Shown: piece after piece, positions 8,704 through 45,518 of the stretch
How positions within the stretch are numbered: the first letter of the stretch is position 1
Layout of the letters: every line of letters begins with the position of its first letter
Origin: Escherichia coli
GTDB taxonomy: Bacteria > Pseudomonadota > Gammaproteobacteria > Enterobacterales > Enterobacteriaceae
DNA: 64,000 nt
Assembly (NCBI RefSeq): GCF_003790525.1
Contig: NZ_CP033635.1
Reading direction: 5' to 3' (one strand)
Made by a program: the position numbers and the translations under genes
Notes under the pieces: generated by a model
Seen by the model: only the letters and a program-made list of their open reading frames with translations
Database searches by the model: none
Told to the model about the DNA's origin: nothing

Positions 8704-8763
8704 GTTCTGCGCTGTTAACGCGTAATTTACATTCAACGCCCCGTTTGTGGGGCTAATTTCTTG

Positions 8764-11458
<2,695 letters not shown>

Positions 11459-12399: not shown

Positions 12400-13170
12400 A
12401 TGTTACATATTGCGAACAAAACGTTTGATTCACATCTGTTTACTGGCACCGGAAAATTCGCCTCTTCACAACTGATGGTGGAGTCTATTCGCGCTTCCGG
12501 CAGCCAACTGGTGACGCTGGCGATGAAACGCGTCAACTTGCGCCAGCACAACGACGCTATCCTCGAACCGCTTATCGCGGCGGGTGTGACCCTGCTGCCA
12601 AATACATCCGGGGCGAAAACAGCGGAAGAAGCCATTTTCGCCGCCCATCTGGCTCGTGAAGCGTTAGGCACAAACTGGTTAAAATTAGAGATTCACCCTG
12701 ACGCCCGCTGGCTGTTGCCCGATCCCATCGAAACCCTGAAAGCCGCCGAAACGCTGGTACAACAGGGATTTGTCGTGCTGCCTTACTGCGGGGCCGATCC
12801 GGTATTGTGTAAACGTCTGGAAGAAGTCGGCTGTGCAGCGGTGATGCCGCTCGGCGCGCCGATTGGCTCGAATCAGGGACTGGAAACCCGTGCCATGCTG
12901 GAGATTATTATCCAGCAAGCCACGGTTCCGGTGGTTGTCGATGCTGGCATCGGCGTTCCCAGCCATGCCGCGCAGGCGCTGGAAATGGGGGCCGACGCGG
13001 TGTTAGTGAATACGGCGATTGCCGTCGCGGACGATCCCGTCAACATGGCGAAGGCATTTCGTCTGGCAGTAGAAGCAGGCCTGCTGGCACGTCAGTCCGG
13101 ACCGGGCAGCCGCAGTCATTTTGCTCATGCCACCAGCCCGCTGACCGGATTTCTGGAGGCATCGGCATGA
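12400..13170 (+). CDS. thiG: Thiazole synthase ThiG
   Basis: 256 aa from [20 protein letters not shown]...; ATG 1 nt after the thiS stop. Confidence 0.93.
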
Positions 13171-14300
13171 AAAACTTCAGCGATCGCTGGCGACAACTGG
13201 ACTGGGACGACATCCGCCTGCGTATCAACGGCAAAACGGCTGCTGACGTAGAGCGGGCGCTAAATGCCTCGCAACTCACCCGCGACGATATGATGGCGCT
13301 GTTATCGCCAGCCGCCATTGGCTATCTGGAACCACTGGCCCAACGGGCGCAGCGTCTGACCCGTCAACGATTTGGCAACACTGTTAGCTTCTACGTCCCG
13401 CTTTATCTTTCCAATCTTTGCGCTAACGACTGCACGTACTGCGGATTCTCTATGAGCAACCGCATCAAGCGCAAAACGCTGGATGAAGCGGATATTGCCA
13501 GGGAAAGCGCCGCTATACGGGAGATGGGCTTTGAACATCTGCTTTTAGTCACTGGTGAACATCAGGCGAAAGTGGGGATGGATTACTTTCGTCGTCATCT
13601 CCCTGCCCTGCGTGAACAGTTCTCTTCACTACAGATGGAAGTGCAACCGCTGGCGGAGACGGAATACGCCGAGTTAAAGCAACTAGGTCTGGATGGCGTG
13701 ATGGTTTATCAGGAGACATATCACGAGGCGACTTATGCCCGCCATCATCTGAAAGGTAAAAAACAGGACTTCTTCTGGCGGCTGGAAACGCCGGATCGGC
13801 TAGGGCATGCGGGGATTGATAAGATAGGCCTCGGCGCGCTAATCGGCCTTTCCGACAACTGGCGAGTTGACTGCTATATGGTTGCCGAACATTTGCTATG
13901 GCTGCAACAACATTACTGGCAAAGCCGCTACTCTGTCTCCTTCCCACGCCTGCGTCCATGTACTGGCGGCATTGAGCCTGCGTCGATTATGGATGAACGC
14001 CAGTTAGTGCAAACCATCTGCGCCTTCCGGCTGCTTGCACCGGAGATTGAACTGTCACTCTCCACGCGGGAATCACCGTGGTTTCGCGATCGCGTTATTC
14101 CGCTGGCAATTAATAACGTCAGCGCTTTTTCGAAAACGCAGCCAGGTGGCTATGCCGACAATCACCCCGAGCTGGAACAGTTCTCACCACACGACGATCG
14201 CAGGCCGGAAGCGGTTGCTGCCGCGTTAACCGCTCAGGGTTTGCAGCCGGTATGGAAAGACTGGGACAGCTATCTGGGACGCGCCTCGCAAAGGCCATGA
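13167..14300 (+). CDS. thiH: 2-iminoacetate synthase ThiH (radical SAM tyrosine lyase)
   Basis: 377 aa ORF with radical-SAM CxxxCxxC motif ([10 protein letters not shown]); overlaps thiG stop. Confidence 0.94.
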
Positions 14301-14412
14301 GACAGAATGTAAGAACGTAAATTTATTCCGAGCCGCTACGGAAGATGAAAAACGCAAGGTTGTTGAAAGCGTTGTGTTTTTTTATGGTAGTGCCGTCAGC
14401 AGGAATGTTGTC

Positions 14413-14460
14413 CAGGGCGAAAAGCTTCTTCCTCGTTTCGCCCTGCCTTTCTTAATATTT
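14413..14460 (+). terminator. Putative rho-independent terminator downstream of thiH
   Basis: Stem CAGGGCGAAA / TTTCGCCCTG followed by a T-rich tract CCTTTCTTAATATTT. Confidence 0.45.
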
Positions 14461-14493
14461 CCCATGAAGAATTTGCCCTCTGAATAACACCCA

Positions 14494-14522
14494 TAAAAAA
14501 ACCCGCCGAAGCGGGTTTTTAC
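14494..14522 (-). terminator. rpoC (rplKAJL-rpoBC) rho-independent terminator
   Basis: On the minus strand AAACCCGCTTCGGCGGGTTTTTTTAT, a GC stem with U-run, about 20 nt after the rpoC stop. Confidence 0.85.
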
Positions 14523-14541
14523 GTTATTTGCGGATTAACGA

Positions 14542-17500
14542 TTACTCGTTATCAGAACCGCCCAGACCTGCGTTCAGCAGTTCTGCCAGGCTGGCAGATG
14601 CGTCTTCTGCAGTCACCTGCGGTGCAGCCGGAGCTTCACCCGCAGCACGGCGACGCATACGATCCTGGTGGTACGCGTAACCGGTACCTGCCGGGATCAG
14701 ACGACCCACGATAACGTTCTCTTTCAGGCCGCGCAATTCGTCGCGTTTGCCCGCAACGGCTGCTTCGGTCAGCACGCGAGTGGTCTCCTGGAACGATGCC
14801 GCGGAGATGAAGGACTCGGTTGCCAGAGACGCTTTGGTGATACCCAGCAGATCGCGGGAGTAAGTTGCCCCCACTTTGCCGTTCGCTTCCAGTTCGCGGT
14901 TTGCGATCTTGACGCGAGAGTATTCAACCTGTTCACCTTCCAGGAAGTCGGAGCTGCCCGCGTTAACGATGGTAGCTTTACGCAGCATCTGACGAACGAT
15001 AACTTCGATGTGTTTATCGTTAATCTTAACGCCCTGCAGACGGTATACGTCCTGTACTTCGTTAACGATGTAACGAGTAACAGCATGAACACCACGCAGA
15101 CGCAGAATGTCGTGCGGCGCTTCCGGACCGTCGGAAATTACGTCACCACGTTCTACACGTTCACCTTCGAACACGTTGAGCTGACGCCATTTCGGAATCA
15201 TCTCTTCGTACGGATCGCTACCGTCTACCGGGGTGATAACCAGACGACGTTTACCTTTGGTTTCTTTACCGAAGGAAACGATACCGCTGATTTCAGCCAG
15301 GATTGCCGGCTCTTTCGGACGACGTGCTTCGAACAGGTCCGCAACGCGCGGCAGACCACCGGTGATGTCCTTGGTACCGCCGGATTCCTGCGGAATACGC
15401 GCCAGGGTGTCACCAGAGCTGATCTGTACGCCATCTTCCAGCTGAACAATCGCTTTACCCGGCAGGAAGTACTGCGCAGGCATATCGGTACCCGGGATCA
15501 GAACGTCGTTACCCTGAGCATCAACGATTTTCAGTGCCGGACGCAGATCTTTACCACCTGCGGTACGTTCTGCGGAATCCAGAACCACCAGCGAAGACAG
15601 ACCGGTCAATTCGTCGGTCTGACGAGTAATGGTCTGGCCGTCGATCATGTCAGTAAAGCGTACAAAACCGCTTACTTCGGTGATAACCGGCATGGTGTGC
15701 GGGTCCCAGTTTGCAACGGTTTCGCCGCCAGCAACCTGTTCGCCATCGCCTTTCGCCAGTACCGCACCGTAAGGTACTTTGTAGCTTTCTTTGGTACGAC
15801 CGAATTCGTCGATCAGTTTCAGTTCGGTGTTACGGGAAGTGATAACCAGTTTACCGCTGGAGTTCACAACCGACTTCACGTTGCTGAGCTTGATGCTACC
15901 TTTGTTTTTCACCTGGATGCTGGATTCAGCAGCCGCACGAGATGCCGCACCACCGATGTGGAACGTACGCATGGTCAGCTGTGTACCCGGTTCACCGATG
16001 GACTGTGCCGCGATTACACCGATTGCTTCACCTTTGTTGATGAGGTGGCCACGCGCCAGGTCACGACCGTAGCAGTGCGCACATACACCAAAGTCGGTGT
16101 CACAAGATACAACAGAACGTACTTTAACCGCGTCGACAGAGTTCTCTTCCAGCAGGTCACACCACTGTTCGTGCAGCAGCGTGTTGCGCGGAACGAGGAT
16201 ATCAGCAGTACCCGGCTTCAGAACGTCTTCAGCAGTTACACGACCCAATACGCGATCGCGCAGCGGCTCTTTAACGTCACCACCCTCGATAACCGGAGTC
16301 ATCATGATACCTTCATGGGTACCACAATCGTCTTCGGTAACCACCAGGTCCTGCGCCACGTCAACCAGACGACGAGTCAGGTAACCGGAGTTCGCCGTTT
16401 TCAGTGCGGTATCCGCCAGACCTTTACGAGCACCGTGGGTGGAGATGAAGTACTGGAGTACGTTCAGACCTTCACGGAAGTTCGCGGTGATTGGCGTTTC
16501 GATGATGGAGCCATCCGGCTTCGCCATCAGACCACGCATACCCGCCAGCTGACGAATCTGTGCCGCAGAACCACGCGCACCGGAGTCGGCCATCATGTAG
16601 ATGCTGTTGAAGGAAACCTGCTTCTCTTCCTGACCGTCACGGTTAATAACGGTTTCAGTTTGCAGGTTATCCATCATCGCTTTGGATACACGATCGTTCG
16701 CCGCAGCCCAGATATCGATAACTTTGTTGTAGCGTTCGCCCGCAGTTACCAGACCAGACTGGAACTGCTCCTGAATTTCAGCAACTTCTGCTTCTGCCTC
16801 GGAGATGATTTCGTGTTTCTTCTCCGGGATGACCATGTCATCGATACCAACAGATGCACCAGAACGCGCTGCATAGGCAAAGCCGGTATACATGATCTGG
16901 TCCGCAAAAATAACGGTCGGTTTCAGACCGAGAATGCGGTAGCAGGTGTTCAGCATTTTGGAGATTGCTTTTTTACCCAGCGCCTGGTTGACGATGGTGT
17001 AAGGCAGACCTTTCGGTACAATCATCCACAGAATGGCACGGCCAACAGTCGTGTCTTTCAGGCTGGTTTTCGCCACTAATTCACCGTTAGCATCTTTTTC
17101 ATACTCGGTGATACGCACTTTAACGCGCGCATGCAGAGAAGCCAGACCAGAGCGATACAGACGTTCTGCTTCTTTCGGGCCAGTCAGCACCATGCCTTCG
17201 CCTTTGGCGTTAACACAGTCGCGGGTCATGTAGTACAGACCCAGTACAACGTCCTGAGACGGAACGATGATTGGTTCGCCGTTTGCCGGGGACAGGATGT
17301 TGTTGGTAGACATCATCAGCGCACGCGCTTCCAGCTGGGCTTCCAGCGTCAGCGGTACGTGAACAGCCATCTGGTCACCATCGAAGTCGGCGTTATATGC
17401 CGCACAAACCAGCGGGTGCAGCTGGATAGCTTTACCTTCGATCAGTACCGGTTCAAATGCCTGGATACCCAGACGGTGCAGAGTCGGTGCACGGTTCAGC

Positions 17501-18765
17501 AGTACCGGGTGTTCGCGGATAACTTCGTCCAGGATATCCCAAACGACAGCTTCTTCGCGCTCAACCATTTTCTTCGCAGCTTTAATGGTGGTAGCAAGAC
17601 CACGCAGTTCCAGCTTGCCGTAGATGAACGGTTTGAACAGCTCCAGTGCCATTTTCTTCGGCAGACCGCACTGATGCAGACGCAGGTATGGACCTACGGT
17701 GATTACAGAACGACCGGAGTAGTCAACACGCTTACCGAGCAGGTTCTGACGGAAACGACCCTGTTTACCTTTGATCATGTCGGCCAAAGATTTCAGAGGA
17801 CGCTTGTTAGAACCGGTGATTGCACGACCGCGACGACCGTTATCCAGCAGGGCGTCTACCGCTTCCTGCAGCATACGTTTTTCGTTACGTACGATGATGT
17901 CCGGCGCAGCCAGATCCAGCAGACGTTTCAGACGGTTGTTACGGTTAATGACGCGACGATACAGATCGTTCAGGTCAGAAGTCGCGAAACGACCACCATC
18001 CAGCGGAACCAGCGGACGCAGATCTGGCGGCAGTACCGGCAGAACGGTCAGGATCATCCACTCTGGTTTGTTACCAGACTGAACGAACGCTTCCAGCAGT
18101 TTGATACGCTTGGTCAGCTTTTTACGCTTGGTTTCGGAGTTGGTTTCGTTCAGCTCTTCACGCAGCTGTTCGCACTCTTGCTCCAGATCCATGCTCTTCA
18201 GCAGGGCCTGGATTGCTTCCGCACCCATCTTCGCGTCGAATTCGTCACCGAACTCTTCCAGCGCGTCCAGATACTGCTCTTCAGTCAGGATCTGCTGACG
18301 CTCCAGGTTGGTCATACCGCCTTCGATAACCACATAGGATTCGAAGTACAGTACGCGTTCGATATCGCGCAGCGGCATATCGAGCAGCAGGCCGATACGG
18401 GACGGCAGCGATTTCAGGAACCAGATGTGCGCAGTCGGGGAAGCCAGTTCGATGTGGCCCATACGCTCACGGCGTACTTTAGTCTGGGTCACTTCAACAC
18501 CGCACTTCTCACAGATGACGCCACGGTGTTTCAGGCGCTTGTACTTACCGCACAGGCACTCGTAATCTTTTACCGGCCCAAAGATACGGGCGCAGAAAAG
18601 GCCGTCACGTTCTGGTTTGAACGTACGGTAGTTGATGGTTTCCGGCTTTTTAACTTCACCGAAAGACCATGAACGGATCATGTCTGGCGAAGCCAGAGCA
18701 ATTTTGATCGCATCAAACTCTTCGGTTTTAGTCTGCGCTTTCAGAAACTTTAATAAATCTTTCAC
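14542..18765 (-). CDS. rpoC: DNA-directed RNA polymerase subunit beta'
   Basis: 1407 aa ORF; [33 protein letters not shown]..., zinc-binding Cys motifs and NADFDGD catalytic motif. Confidence 0.99.
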
Positions 18766-23115: not shown

Positions 23116-23150
23116 GCGCAAAAAGGCTGGTGACTAAAAAGTCACCAGCC
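23116..23150 (-). terminator. rplL-rpoB intercistronic attenuator (partial terminator)
   Basis: Minus-strand hairpin GGCTGGTGAC-TTTTTA-GTCACCAGCC followed by TTTTTG, 40-75 nt downstream of rplL. Confidence 0.8.
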
Positions 23151-23189
23151 ATCAGCCTGATTTCTCAGGCTGCAACCGGAAGGGTTGGC

Positions 23190-28164: not shown

Positions 28165-28240
28165 TGGTGCTGATAGGCAGATTCGAACTGCCGACCTCAC
28201 CCTTACCAAGGGTGCGCTCTACCAACTGAGCTATATCAGC
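28165..28240 (-). tRNA. thrT: tRNA-Thr
   Basis: Reverse complement GCTGATATAGCTCAGTTGGTAGAGCGCACCCTTGGTAAGGGTGAGGTCGGCAGTTCGAATCTGCCTATCAGCACCA; cloverleaf with encoded CCA. Confidence 0.95.
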
Positions 28241-28246
28241 ACATCT

Positions 28247-28321
<75 letters not shown>

Positions 28322-28437
28322 ATCCTGGAACTCGGCTACCTGATTTTCATTCTGCACTGAATATCGAGAGAAGCTCTCTTTATTCGAGCCGGTAAGCGAA
28401 CTTATCGTCTCGGGCTACGCCATCGCGTGGCCGAAAT

Positions 28438-28522
<85 letters not shown>

Positions 28523-28530
28523 GGACTTGA

Positions 28531-28606
<76 letters not shown>

Positions 28607-32071: not shown

Positions 32072-32191
32072 ATGCCTGGCAGTTCCCTACTCTCGCATGG
32101 GGAGACCCCACACTACCATCGGCGCTACGGCGTTTCACTTCTGAGTTCGGCATGGGGTCAGGTGGGACCACCGCGCTAAGGCCGCCAGGCA
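32072..32191 (-). rRNA. rrfB: 5S ribosomal RNA
   Basis: 120-nt reverse complement of TGCCTGGCGGCC...GGGAACTGCCAGGCAT, matching E. coli 5S as I recall it. Confidence 0.97.
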
Positions 32192-32283
32192 AATTCTGTT
32201 TCATCAGACCGCTTCTGCGTTCTGATTTAATCTGTATCAGGCTGAAAATCTTCTCTCTTCCGCCAAAACATCTTCGGCGTTGT

Positions 32284-35187
<2,904 letters not shown>

Positions 35188-35380
35188 TCACAACCCGAAG
35201 ATGTTTCTTTCGATTCGTCATCGTGTTGCGAAAATTTGAGAGACTCACGAACAACTTTCGTTGTTCAGTGTTTCAATTTTCAGCTTGATCCAGATTTTTA
35301 AAGAGCAAATATCTCAAACGTCACCCGAAGATGAGTTTTGAGATATTAAGGCAGGTGACTTTCACTCACAAACCAGCAAG

Positions 35381-35456
35381 TGGCGTCCCCTAGGGGATTC
35401 GAACCCCTGTTACCGCCGTGAAAGGGCGGTGTCCTGGGCCTCTAGACGAAGGGGAC
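35381..35456 (-). tRNA. gltT: tRNA-Glu (spacer tRNA of rrnB)
   Basis: Reverse complement GTCCCCTTCGTCTAGAGGCCCAGGACACCGCCCTTTCACGGCGGTAACAGGGGTTCGAATCCCCTAGGGGACGCCA. Confidence 0.96.
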
Positions 35457-35541
35457 GTATCAGTCTGCTTCGCAAGACGCCTTGCTTTTCACTTTCTATC
35501 AGACAATCTGTGTGAGCACTTCAAAGAACGCTTCTTTAAGG

Positions 35542-37083
<1,542 letters not shown>

Positions 37084-40102: not shown

Positions 40103-40345
40103 TGTAAAGCATCCACAATAGAAGAAGGATGCCGCAGGTTTCATCAATATTACGCGATGATGAGAACCAGATGCGACGTTAGCCGGCAGGTCTTCGGGCT
40201 TGGAGGGGTATCTAAGATACTAAGAGATGATGACTTCCCACCGGATGGCAGTGTCCGCATAACGCAATCATCGCACCTTTCCTTACCGCTGCGCGTCAGC
40301 TCCAGATTCGCACTGGATTCCCTATTAACTCACAGGACCGGCAAG
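40103..40345 (-). promoter_or_regulatory. Cobalamin (B12) riboswitch / btuB leader
   Basis: Reverse complement contains GCCGGTCCTGTGAGTTAATAGGGAATCCAGTGCGAATCTGGAGCTGACGCGCAGCGGTAAGGAAAGGTGCGATGATTGCGTTATGCGGACACTGCCATCCGGTGGGAAGTCATCATCTCTTAGTATCTTAGATACCCCTCCAAGCCCGAAGACCTGCCGGC with the B12-box. Confidence 0.88.
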
Positions 40346-40470
40346 TGGATGCTACAGGTTGTAACAAGTTACTGTCCAGACGTAGCTCACAAATAGGAAT
40401 TCATCAAGATCTGGACATCTGATGAGCAATCCCTACAATCGCCGCGTACTTTAATTTTTCAGGATACATC

Positions 40471-45346: not shown

Positions 45347-45455
45347 AGAAACGGAGCGGCACCTCTTTTAACCCTTGAAGTCACTGCCCGTTTCGAGAGT
45401 TTCTCAACTCGAATAACTAAAGCCAACGTGAACTTTTGCGGATCTCCAGGATCCG
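45347..45455 (+). ncRNA. oxyS: OxyS small regulatory RNA
   Basis: 109-nt GAAACGGAGCGGCACCTCTTTTAACCCTTGAAGTCACTGCCCGTTTCGAGAGTTTCTCAACTCGAATAACTAAAGCCAACGTGAACTTTTGCGGATCTCCAGGATCCGC followed by a T-run; divergent from oxyR. Confidence 0.93.
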
Positions 45456-45518
45456 CTTTTTTTTTGCCATAAAAAGCCCAGCGATAAGCCAGGCTCAAAT
45501 TAATACATATAAATGTTC

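What the first reader, a model, noticed from the sequence alone, without database searches (positions are those of the whole stretch)
14301..14541. No yjaZ/htrC gene between rpoC and thiH
The convergent thiH and rpoC genes are separated by only 241 bp holding two terminator-like hairpins and no ORF longer than about 27 codons. In K-12 as I recall it, a roughly 180-codon gene (yjaZ/htrC, b3989) sits here, making the spacer about 830 bp. This locus therefore looks like a gene-absent allele, or a clean deletion, in an otherwise highly conserved neighbourhood. It marks the strain as non-MG1655 and may reveal the deletion breakpoints.
Basis: partly seen in the sequence, partly recalled or inferred. 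Interest (0 to 1): 0.4.

Follow-up and report, generated by a model that had tools for sequence, protein, structure and literature searches.

The report
Empty yjaZ–sroH site beside rpoC
This E. coli strain (SMS-3-5) carries the common "short" version of the gap between thiH and rpoC. It lacks a 945-bp cassette holding the gene yjaZ and the small RNA sroH, an ordinary and already published gene-content difference shared by about 30% of complete E. coli genomes.

Summary
thiH (13167-14300, +) and rpoC (14542-18765, -) converge on a 241-bp spacer that contains only hairpins.

The window is 100% identical to E. coli SMS-3-5. K-12 has a 1161-bp spacer here (not about 830 bp).

The difference is 24 bp in the window (14466-14489) against 945 bp in K-12, so it is not a clean deletion. 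The short allele occurs in 1629 of 5426 complete E. coli genomes and the cassette in 3741. All short alleles examined share one junction and come from several lineages, so this is an old polymorphism, not a strain-specific event.

No yjaZ or sroH was found in the window, elsewhere on the SMS-3-5 chromosome (DNA level), or on its four plasmids.

Absence of sroH from B2+D strains (SMS-3-5 was in that dataset) and ATCC 8739 was published in 2012 and read as secondary loss. A cryptic-clade Escherichia carries the cassette at flank-level divergence (93%), which favours loss, but direction is not settled.

A side observation: yjaZ–sroH is a mobile protein-plus-sRNA pair on plasmids, and YjaZ shows a weak RelE/ParE-like fold.

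The finding itself is ordinary and already known.

The parts
13167..14300 (+). thiH (2-iminoacetate synthase), 377 codons, last gene of the thi operon on this side
   Evidence: ORF list. RefSeq annotation of the identical SMS-3-5 stretch.
14301..14465 (+). thiH-proximal part of the spacer, shared by short and long alleles (about 98-100% identical to K-12) and also present in E. whittamii as far as ...CTTTCTTAAAA
   Evidence: Side-by-side comparison with K-12. Alignment of six short alleles. E. whittamii sequence.
14347..14382 (+). A-tract / stem / U-tract hairpin (-14.1 kcal/mol), a candidate thiH terminator
   Evidence: RNA fold. Not flagged by the consensus terminator scan, so its terminator function is inferred.
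14413..14445 (+). G+C-rich 10-bp stem with a 13-nt loop (-14.3 kcal/mol), followed by CCUUUCUU
   Evidence: RNA fold. Invariant in all six short alleles and in K-12 and O157.
14466..14489 (.). 24-bp allele-specific filler (GAAGAATTTGCCCTCTGAATAACA). It occupies the position where long-allele strains carry the 945-bp yjaZ-sroH cassette (L001 1166-2110).
   Evidence: Prefix/suffix comparison with K-12. Same filler with 1-2 SNPs in R6, MCJCHV-1, Ec-U9-2, ATCC 8739 and O103:H2. No significant match to the cassette.
14490..14541 (-). rpoC 3' untranslated region, 52 bp identical to K-12
   Evidence: Exact suffix match of 52 bases.
14497..14520 (-). rpoC intrinsic terminator. A symmetric A5-stem-U5 hairpin, so potentially bidirectional; conserved across Enterobacteriaceae.
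   Evidence: Terminator scan. Fold. The same hairpin follows rpoC in most of the other species in which the rpoC 3' end was recovered.
14542..18765 (-). rpoC (RNA polymerase beta' subunit), 1407 codons
   Evidence: ORF list. RefSeq annotation.

Best explanation
The window comes from E. coli SMS-3-5. Its thiH-rpoC gap is the short allele of an old, species-wide presence/absence polymorphism. In the long allele (K-12, O157 and about 69% of complete genomes), 945 bp lie between the thiH-side hairpins and the rpoC terminator. That segment carries yjaZ (179 codons, same strand as rpoC) and the 161-nt sRNA gene sroH, which converges on yjaZ and ends 1 nt from its stop codon. In the short allele those 945 bp are replaced by 24 bp, leaving only the terminator hairpins of the two convergent genes. 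SMS-3-5 inherited this allele and did not make it: every short allele examined has the same junction. The allele also sits on K-12-like flanks in ATCC 8739, which fits a single origin spread by homologous recombination through the near-identical flanks (inferred). yjaZ and sroH are absent from this strain, not relocated. On direction, the cassette most likely predates the E. coli radiation and the short allele is most likely a secondary, imprecise loss (about 55-60% likely). An equally old never-occupied allele remains possible. The functional consequence is simply that the strain lacks a dispensable accessory protein and sRNA.
For: Identity of the strain: 100% match to NC_010498.1. K-12 arrangement and sroH: (RF00372, 201 bits against a gathering score of 80). 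Breakpoints, 24 bp against 945 bp. Frequencies: 1629/5426 genomes hold the 241-bp spacer in one piece and 3741/5426 hold the cassette. The two sets sum to 5370 of the 5420 genomes with the locus, so they barely overlap. Same junction in six short alleles from different backgrounds. ATCC 8739 has the K-12 ThiH protein and K-12-like left flank but the short junction. True absence: no YjaZ by tblastn in the 64-kb window; no sroH in the window; the SMS-3-5 chromosome gives a single place for a flank+yjaZ chimeric query in sensitive blastn; none of its four plasmids has a hit. Age and direction: a cryptic-clade Escherichia labelled E69 (thiH 93% identical to all E. coli tested) carries the whole long spacer at 93% identity to K-12, the same divergence as its flanks, always in rpoC-yjaZ-thiH context. 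An E. albertii YjaZ fragment at 90% identity appears in AFDB. Published parsimony places sroH loss on the B2+D branch and in ATCC 8739 (PMC3318445). Dispensability: the O157 allele is truncated by a 71-bp deletion and there are IS1/IS66-disrupted and frameshifted copies.
Against: The direction is not proven. The 24-bp filler cannot be derived from any long allele examined. Its similarity to the terminator-proximal end of the cassette is not significant for K-12 (p about 0.25) or TOE51 (p about 0.15) and only marginal for E69 (p about 0.018). The only candidate flanking direct repeat (AAATTCCGTAA / AAATTCCTTAA) is no better than five other chance repeats in the region, and recombination between its copies would not give the observed junction. 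The cassette is 38-44% G+C against 52-60% in its neighbours. Its protein family is common on plasmids. Neither the 77 non-Escherichia species sampled nor E. whittamii has yjaZ next to thiH. All of this fits an insertion. The published loss inference used a 2:1 gain/loss penalty and K-12 sRNAs only. E. albertii, E. fergusonii, E. marmotae and E. ruysiae chromosomes could not be inspected at this locus. The search of the SMS-3-5 chromosome was at DNA level only (about 65-70% identity or better), so a very distant paralogue is not excluded.
Confidence: 0.85

Rival explanations
1. The site was never occupied. The short allele is the ancestral state of the thiH-rpoC gap. The long allele arose when a mobile yjaZ-sroH module, plus about 300 bp of other DNA, was inserted between the two terminators and replaced 24 bp. 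SMS-3-5 and other short-allele strains never had the cassette.
For: The cassette has low G+C. YjaZ homologues sit on 559 plasmid records including 2.46-kb ColE1 plasmids, and the yjaZ-sroH pair travels as a unit. No yjaZ lies beside thiH in the 77 non-Escherichia species sampled or in E. whittamii, and the gap there ranges from 341 bp to more than 3.5 kb, so this site accepts cargo. The first roughly 10 nt after the rpoC terminator in the short allele (ATGGGTGTTA) resemble the outgroup consensus (ATGNCTGNNA) slightly better than K-12's (ATGGGGGGAG). From my own knowledge, the lineages usually placed basal in E. coli (B2, F, D) are the main carriers of the short allele.
Against: A cryptic-clade Escherichia (E69 type) has the cassette at the same locus with the same 93% divergence as its flanking genes. 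Any insertion therefore predates the E. coli radiation, and the empty allele would have had to persist as a trans-species polymorphism or be re-imported. An E. albertii-labelled YjaZ fragment at 90% identity exists. Published parsimony favours loss.
Confidence: 0.38
2. A recent clean deletion occurred in the SMS-3-5 lineage and removed yjaZ from a K-12-like ancestor.
For: The flanks are 98-100% identical to K-12 right up to the junction.
Against: The identical junction and filler occur in 1629 genomes from unrelated backgrounds. 24 bp of non-K-12 sequence sit at the junction. Absence in B2+D strains was already seen among 27 genomes in 2012.
Confidence: 0.02
3. yjaZ has moved elsewhere in the SMS-3-5 genome or onto one of its plasmids, so the strain still has the gene.
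For: YjaZ homologues are frequent on small and large enterobacterial plasmids, and SMS-3-5 carries four plasmids.
Against: tblastn with four family members finds nothing on the four plasmids (best E = 0.06) or in the window. The chromosome shows only the flank match in sensitive blastn with a flank+yjaZ query.
Confidence: 0.02
4. The short spacer is an assembly or collapse artefact.
For: None.
Against: The same contiguous 241 bp appears in 1629 independently assembled complete genomes. There are no repeats at the junction that could cause a collapse.
Confidence: 0.01

Closest known systems
Variable phyletic distribution of sroH in E. coli/Shigella (Skippington & Ragan 2012, Genome Biol Evol, PMC3318445)
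   Same: It is the same polymorphism. That paper lists sroH as absent from the B2+D branch (its dataset includes Ec_SMS_3), ATCC 8739, S. flexneri and S. sonnei 046, and classes this as secondary loss. My counts extend it to 5426 genomes.
   Different: The passages I searched by keyword did not mention yjaZ, the breakpoints, the 24-bp filler, or that yjaZ and sroH are gained and lost as one 945-bp unit; I did not read the whole paper. Its loss inference rests on a 2:1 gain/loss penalty.
K-12 MG1655 rpoC-yjaZ(htrC, b3989)-sroH-thiH region
   Same: The flanking genes, the rpoC terminator and the 165-bp thiH-side spacer are 96-100% identical.
   Different: K-12 has 945 bp (yjaZ and sroH with their promoter regions) where the window has 24 bp. 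The K-12 spacer is 1161 bp against 241 bp.
Toxin-antitoxin modules with an RNA partner that share a bidirectional terminator (type I systems such as fst/RNAII or txpA/RatA), and RelE/ParE-fold toxins. This comparison concerns the missing cassette, not the window itself.
   Same: A protein gene and a convergent small RNA sit tail-to-tail around one palindromic terminator. The pair is carried on small plasmids, F-type plasmids and a phage-plasmid. The predicted fold of residues about 77-170 resembles RelE/ParE/HigB/YoeB toxins, with invariant His and Arg residues.

Membership tests
Short (cassette-less) thiH-rpoC allele of E. coli | thiH-side flank joined to the rpoC terminator through the 24-bp filler GAAGA(A/C)TTTGCCCTCTGAATAACA, giving a spacer of about 240 bp | tested here: met
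   Window 14301-14541. Identical architecture in five other strains and in 1629/5426 genomes as one contiguous match.
YjaZ family (NCBIfam PRK09717 / Pfam PF27200) | A product in the window matching the family | tested here: not met
   K-12 YjaZ scores 430 bits on PRK09717. tblastn of four family members against the whole window gives nothing better than E = 0.047 over 34 residues.
sroH sRNA (Rfam RF00372) | A match at or above the gathering score of 80 bits | tested here: not met
   No sroH among the window's 13 gathering-level Rfam hits and none in L003 at E <= 1. K-12, O157 and E69 score 195-201 bits.
Rho-independent (intrinsic) terminator | G+C-rich stem-loop directly followed by a U tract | tested here: met
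   14497-14520 (10 pairs, 5 G-C, loop of 4). On the minus strand it is followed by UUUUUUUAUGG. For 14347-14382 and 14413-14445 only the hairpins are shown. Both fail the scan's criteria, so they are inconclusive as terminators.
RelE/ParE toxin superfamily (for the absent YjaZ protein) | Significant structural or sequence similarity to the RelE/ParE core fold | tested here: inconclusive
   [not shown]
RelE/ParE toxin superfamily (for the absent YjaZ protein) | Growth inhibition on expression, neutralised by a cognate antitoxin | not testable with these tools
   No experimental data were found in the searched literature.
Type I toxin-antitoxin system (for the absent yjaZ-sroH pair) | A small (<60 aa) hydrophobic toxin peptide repressed by an antisense RNA that pairs with its mRNA | tested here: not met
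   YjaZ is 179 aa with a mixed alpha/beta soluble fold. The antisense overlap is limited to the shared terminator. There is no pairing signal with the 5' region (z from -1.7 to +0.9).

The most novel reading that the evidence does not exclude
The cassette missing from this window may not be a housekeeping gene that was lost. It may be a selfish or defensive mobile module: a RelE/ParE-fold protein (YjaZ) paired with a convergent sRNA (SroH) that controls it. The module circulates on ColE1, IncF and phage-plasmids and has docked between the rpoC and thiH terminators, a spot that takes different cargo in different Enterobacteriaceae. On this reading, the short allele in SMS-3-5 is the vacant or cleared docking site, and the 30/70 split in E. 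coli reflects turnover of an addiction-like or defence-like element.
Probability: 0.15. Interest if true: 0.55.

Novelty: already known. Interest (0 to 1): 0.12.

Why it matters
The finding itself matters little. It identifies the strain background (SMS-3-5 and relatives) and documents a routine accessory-gene difference with no evident effect on the essential neighbours rpoC and thiH.

Three things are useful to take from it. First, annotators should expect two alleles at this locus, and sroH and yjaZ go together. Second, K-12-based lists of "conserved" sRNAs include one that is missing from almost a third of E. coli. Third, the side observation that yjaZ and sroH form a plasmid-borne pair gives a testable lead for two long-uncharacterised K-12 genes.

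Tried and rejected
1. Junction with short direct repeats. An 11-nt imperfect repeat flanks the K-12 cassette, but five equally good chance repeats lie in the same 1 kb, and recombination between its copies predicts a junction that is not observed. Rejected as evidence for a mechanism.

2. Homology between the 24-bp filler (plus neighbours) and the terminator-proximal end of the cassette. Global alignment against shuffles gave p about 0.25 (K-12), 0.15 (TOE51) and 0.018 (E69). Best local matches anywhere in the cassette gave p about 0.04. This is too weak to use.

3. A 72-bp junction probe to count short alleles found only 373 genomes, because megablast needs 28-nt words and SNPs interrupt them. 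It was replaced by the 241-bp probe.

4. Outgroup polarity. Follow-up of fragmentary YjaZ clusters led only to E. coli/Shigella copies disrupted by IS elements or frameshifts.

5. SroH pairing with the yjaZ 5' region gave no signal (an earlier attempt timed out).

6. Searches of phages, PADLOC, PHROGs, the local Pfam-A copy and PDB sequences with YjaZ found nothing.

7. The first literature search on 'sroH' was swamped by an unrelated acronym.

Full report
**Observation**

The window is 100% identical over 13800-15000 to the chromosome of E. coli SMS-3-5 (NC_010498.1). thiH runs 13167-14300 on the plus strand and rpoC runs 14542-18765 on the minus strand. The convergent genes are therefore separated by exactly 241 bp, 14301-14541.

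None resembles YjaZ.

Folding the plus-strand transcript gives three strong hairpins:
- 14347-14382, -14.1 kcal/mol, an A-tract/stem/U-tract
- 14413-14445, -14.3 kcal/mol
- 14497-14520, -13.1 kcal/mol

The last is the rpoC terminator. It is the only one that meets the consensus terminator scan, and it is conserved behind rpoC across Enterobacteriaceae.

**What K-12 has at this position**

In an MG1655 record the thiH-rpoC spacer is 1161 bp, not about 830 bp. It contains yjaZ (540 bp, 179 codons, same strand as rpoC).

The Rfam RF00372 match scores 201 bits against a gathering score of 80. sroH lies on the thiH strand and its 3' end is 1 nt from the yjaZ stop codon, so the two genes converge on one palindromic terminator.

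Comparing the two spacers shows the following (with one search used to place SNPs):
- Homology on the thiH side runs through window 14465.
- Homology on the rpoC side starts at 14490 with 52 identical bases.
- Between these points the window has 24 bp (14466-14489), where K-12 has 945 bp (L001 1166-2110).

This is a replacement-type indel, not a clean deletion.

**How common it is**

The 241-bp spacer is found as one contiguous piece in 1629 of 5426 complete E. coli genomes. The K-12 cassette is found in 3741 of 5426.

The two counts sum to 5370 of the 5420 genomes that have the locus. The classes are therefore essentially exclusive, and the remainder are variants such as IS insertions (H41, H40).

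Six short alleles align with the same junction and the same filler, differing by 1-3 SNPs. They come from SMS-3-5, R6, MCJCHV-1, Ec-U9-2, ATCC 8739 and an O103:H2 strain. Other carriers include LF82, an O127:H6 strain and Seattle 1946. By my own knowledge these strains span phylogroups F, B2, A and B1.

ATCC 8739 has the same ThiH protein as K-12 and a K-12-like left flank, but the short junction. Conversely, strains whose thiH is 98% identical to that of SMS-3-5 carry the long allele. Together these fit one origin of the dichotomy, with alleles exchanged by homologous recombination through the conserved flanks (inferred).

**Whether the gene is elsewhere**

- tblastn with K-12 YjaZ and three plasmid homologues finds nothing in the 64-kb window.
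- Rfam finds no sroH in the window.
- I built a chimeric query from 1.2 kb of the SMS-3-5 flank plus K-12 yjaZ in inverted orientation and ran it in sensitive blastn. It puts the SMS-3-5 chromosome at the top with a single matching place, so there is no yjaZ-like DNA (about 65-70% identity or better) elsewhere on that chromosome.
- I fetched the four SMS-3-5 plasmids in full. They have no hit.

A protein-level search of the whole chromosome could not be run.

**Already published**

Skippington and Ragan (2012, PMC3318445) scored 83 K-12 sRNAs in 27 E. coli/Shigella genomes, SMS-3-5 among them. They list sroH as lost on the B2+D branch and in ATCC 8739, S. flexneri and S. sonnei 046, and class it as paraphyletic, meaning secondary loss.

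Their parsimony used a 2:1 gain/loss penalty and K-12 queries only, so the direction they report is an inference.

The heat-shock role originally claimed for htrC has been retracted, and the gene is listed as uncharacterised (PMC11551758).

**Direction of the event**

Evidence that favours an old cassette and later loss:
- A genome labelled E. coli E69 has thiH only 93% identical to all E. coli tested, about as distant as E. whittamii. It carries the complete long spacer at 93% identity to K-12, the same divergence as its flanks.
- Its YjaZ variant was seen on 24 contigs. Wherever flanking genes could be read, it lay beside rpoC and/or thiH.
- An E. albertii-labelled YjaZ fragment at 90% identity appears in AFDB.

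Evidence that favours an insertion at some point:
- The cassette is 38-44% G+C against 52-60% for its neighbours.
- Neither the 77 non-Escherichia species sampled nor E. whittamii has yjaZ within 3.5 kb of thiH. The gap in those species ranges from 341 bp to more than 3.5 kb.
- E. whittamii keeps the thiH-side flank up to ...CTTTCTTAAAA and then carries unrelated ORFs of 211 and 802 residues.

The junction itself does not decide the matter:
- The filler has no significant counterpart in the cassette.
- The only flanking direct repeat is at chance level.

I put loss at roughly 55-60% and a never-occupied ancestral allele at 35-40%.

**Side observation on the missing cassette**

YjaZ homologues (below 80% identity) occur on about 555 genuine plasmid records of the 559 matched, mostly Klebsiella. 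Four of the 559 are chromosome-sized E. coli records with 98-100% identity. I inspected four plasmid contexts:
- a 2.46-kb ColE1 plasmid on which the homologue is the main cargo (the only other annotated ORF is 27 codons)
- two IncF plasmids
- an E. fergusonii phage-plasmid, where it sits between tail genes

In all four, an sroH match above the gathering score (99-144 bits) lies tail-to-tail 1 nt after the stop codon. DNA homology to K-12 is confined to the yjaZ coding sequence plus sroH.

The family is small (208 representatives at 50% clustering) and is scattered across phyla.

There is no PADLOC, PHROG or phage-genome match, and I found no SroH pairing with the yjaZ 5' region.

A toxin-plus-RNA reading is therefore a lead, not a result.

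**Verdict**

It is wrong or incomplete in detail:
- It is not a clean deletion.
- It is not strain-specific.
- sroH is missing as well.
- The K-12 spacer is 1161 bp.

This is a known, ordinary accessory-gene polymorphism, and interest is low.

Noticed in passing
L090 2501-3193; L091 1090-1789; L092 2492-3187; L093 2489-3206; L011 4882-5583: In every context examined, a yjaZ homologue is followed tail-to-tail by an Rfam sroH match above the gathering score, with a 1-nt gap after the stop codon. The contexts are a phage-plasmid, a 2.46-kb ColE1 plasmid, two IncF plasmids and a cryptic-clade chromosome. yjaZ-sroH therefore looks like a mobile protein-plus-sRNA pair.
   Followed up: partly
[not shown]
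   Followed up: partly
L002 1428-1871 (O157-type strain F1 E4): The O157 lineage carries a 71-bp internal deletion in yjaZ. This gives a 147-residue 'protein HtrC' with a different C-terminus, while sroH stays intact.
   Followed up: partly
L108 3001-4317; L109-L112 3001-3198; L113 37-426; L114 3501-3842; hit H41: yjaZ is interrupted by IS1 or IS66, or is frameshifted, in several E. coli/Shigella genomes that keep the long allele. This points to decay of a dispensable gene.
   Followed up: partly
L010 4635-8128 (E. whittamii): The thiH-side flank is conserved up to ...CTTTCTTAAAA. It is then followed by unrelated ORFs of 211 and 802 residues and no rpoC within 3.5 kb. This is a third occupant of the same site within Escherichia.
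   Followed up: no
L013-L089 (other Enterobacteriaceae), downstream of the rpoC terminator: The thiH-rpoC distance ranges from 341 bp to more than 3.5 kb. Many genera have a conserved convergent gene ending right after the rpoC terminator (DNA motif ...CGATACAGCTCAATCATATCGCC...) that E. coli lacks.
   Followed up: no
window 14301-14465: The 165-bp thiH-proximal spacer with two strong hairpins is nearly invariant in all E. coli examined, whichever allele they carry, and is kept in E. whittamii. This is more conserved than expected for a plain spacer, so it may be a functional thiH 3' UTR.
   Followed up: no
window 8755-8855, 23124-23185, 28168-28606, 32074-37083, 40168-40357, 45348-45457: Other Rfam matches in the window are a TPP riboswitch, a 'P26' match, five tRNAs (four at 28168-28606, one in the rrn spacer at 35384-35456), a complete rrn operon (with a StyR-44 match), a cobalamin riboswitch and OxyS. 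All are ordinary for this chromosomal region.
   Followed up: no
tools:: The local Pfam-A scan found no family for YjaZ, yet the precomputed annotations list PF27200 (YjaZ). The two Pfam copies evidently differ in release.
   Followed up: no
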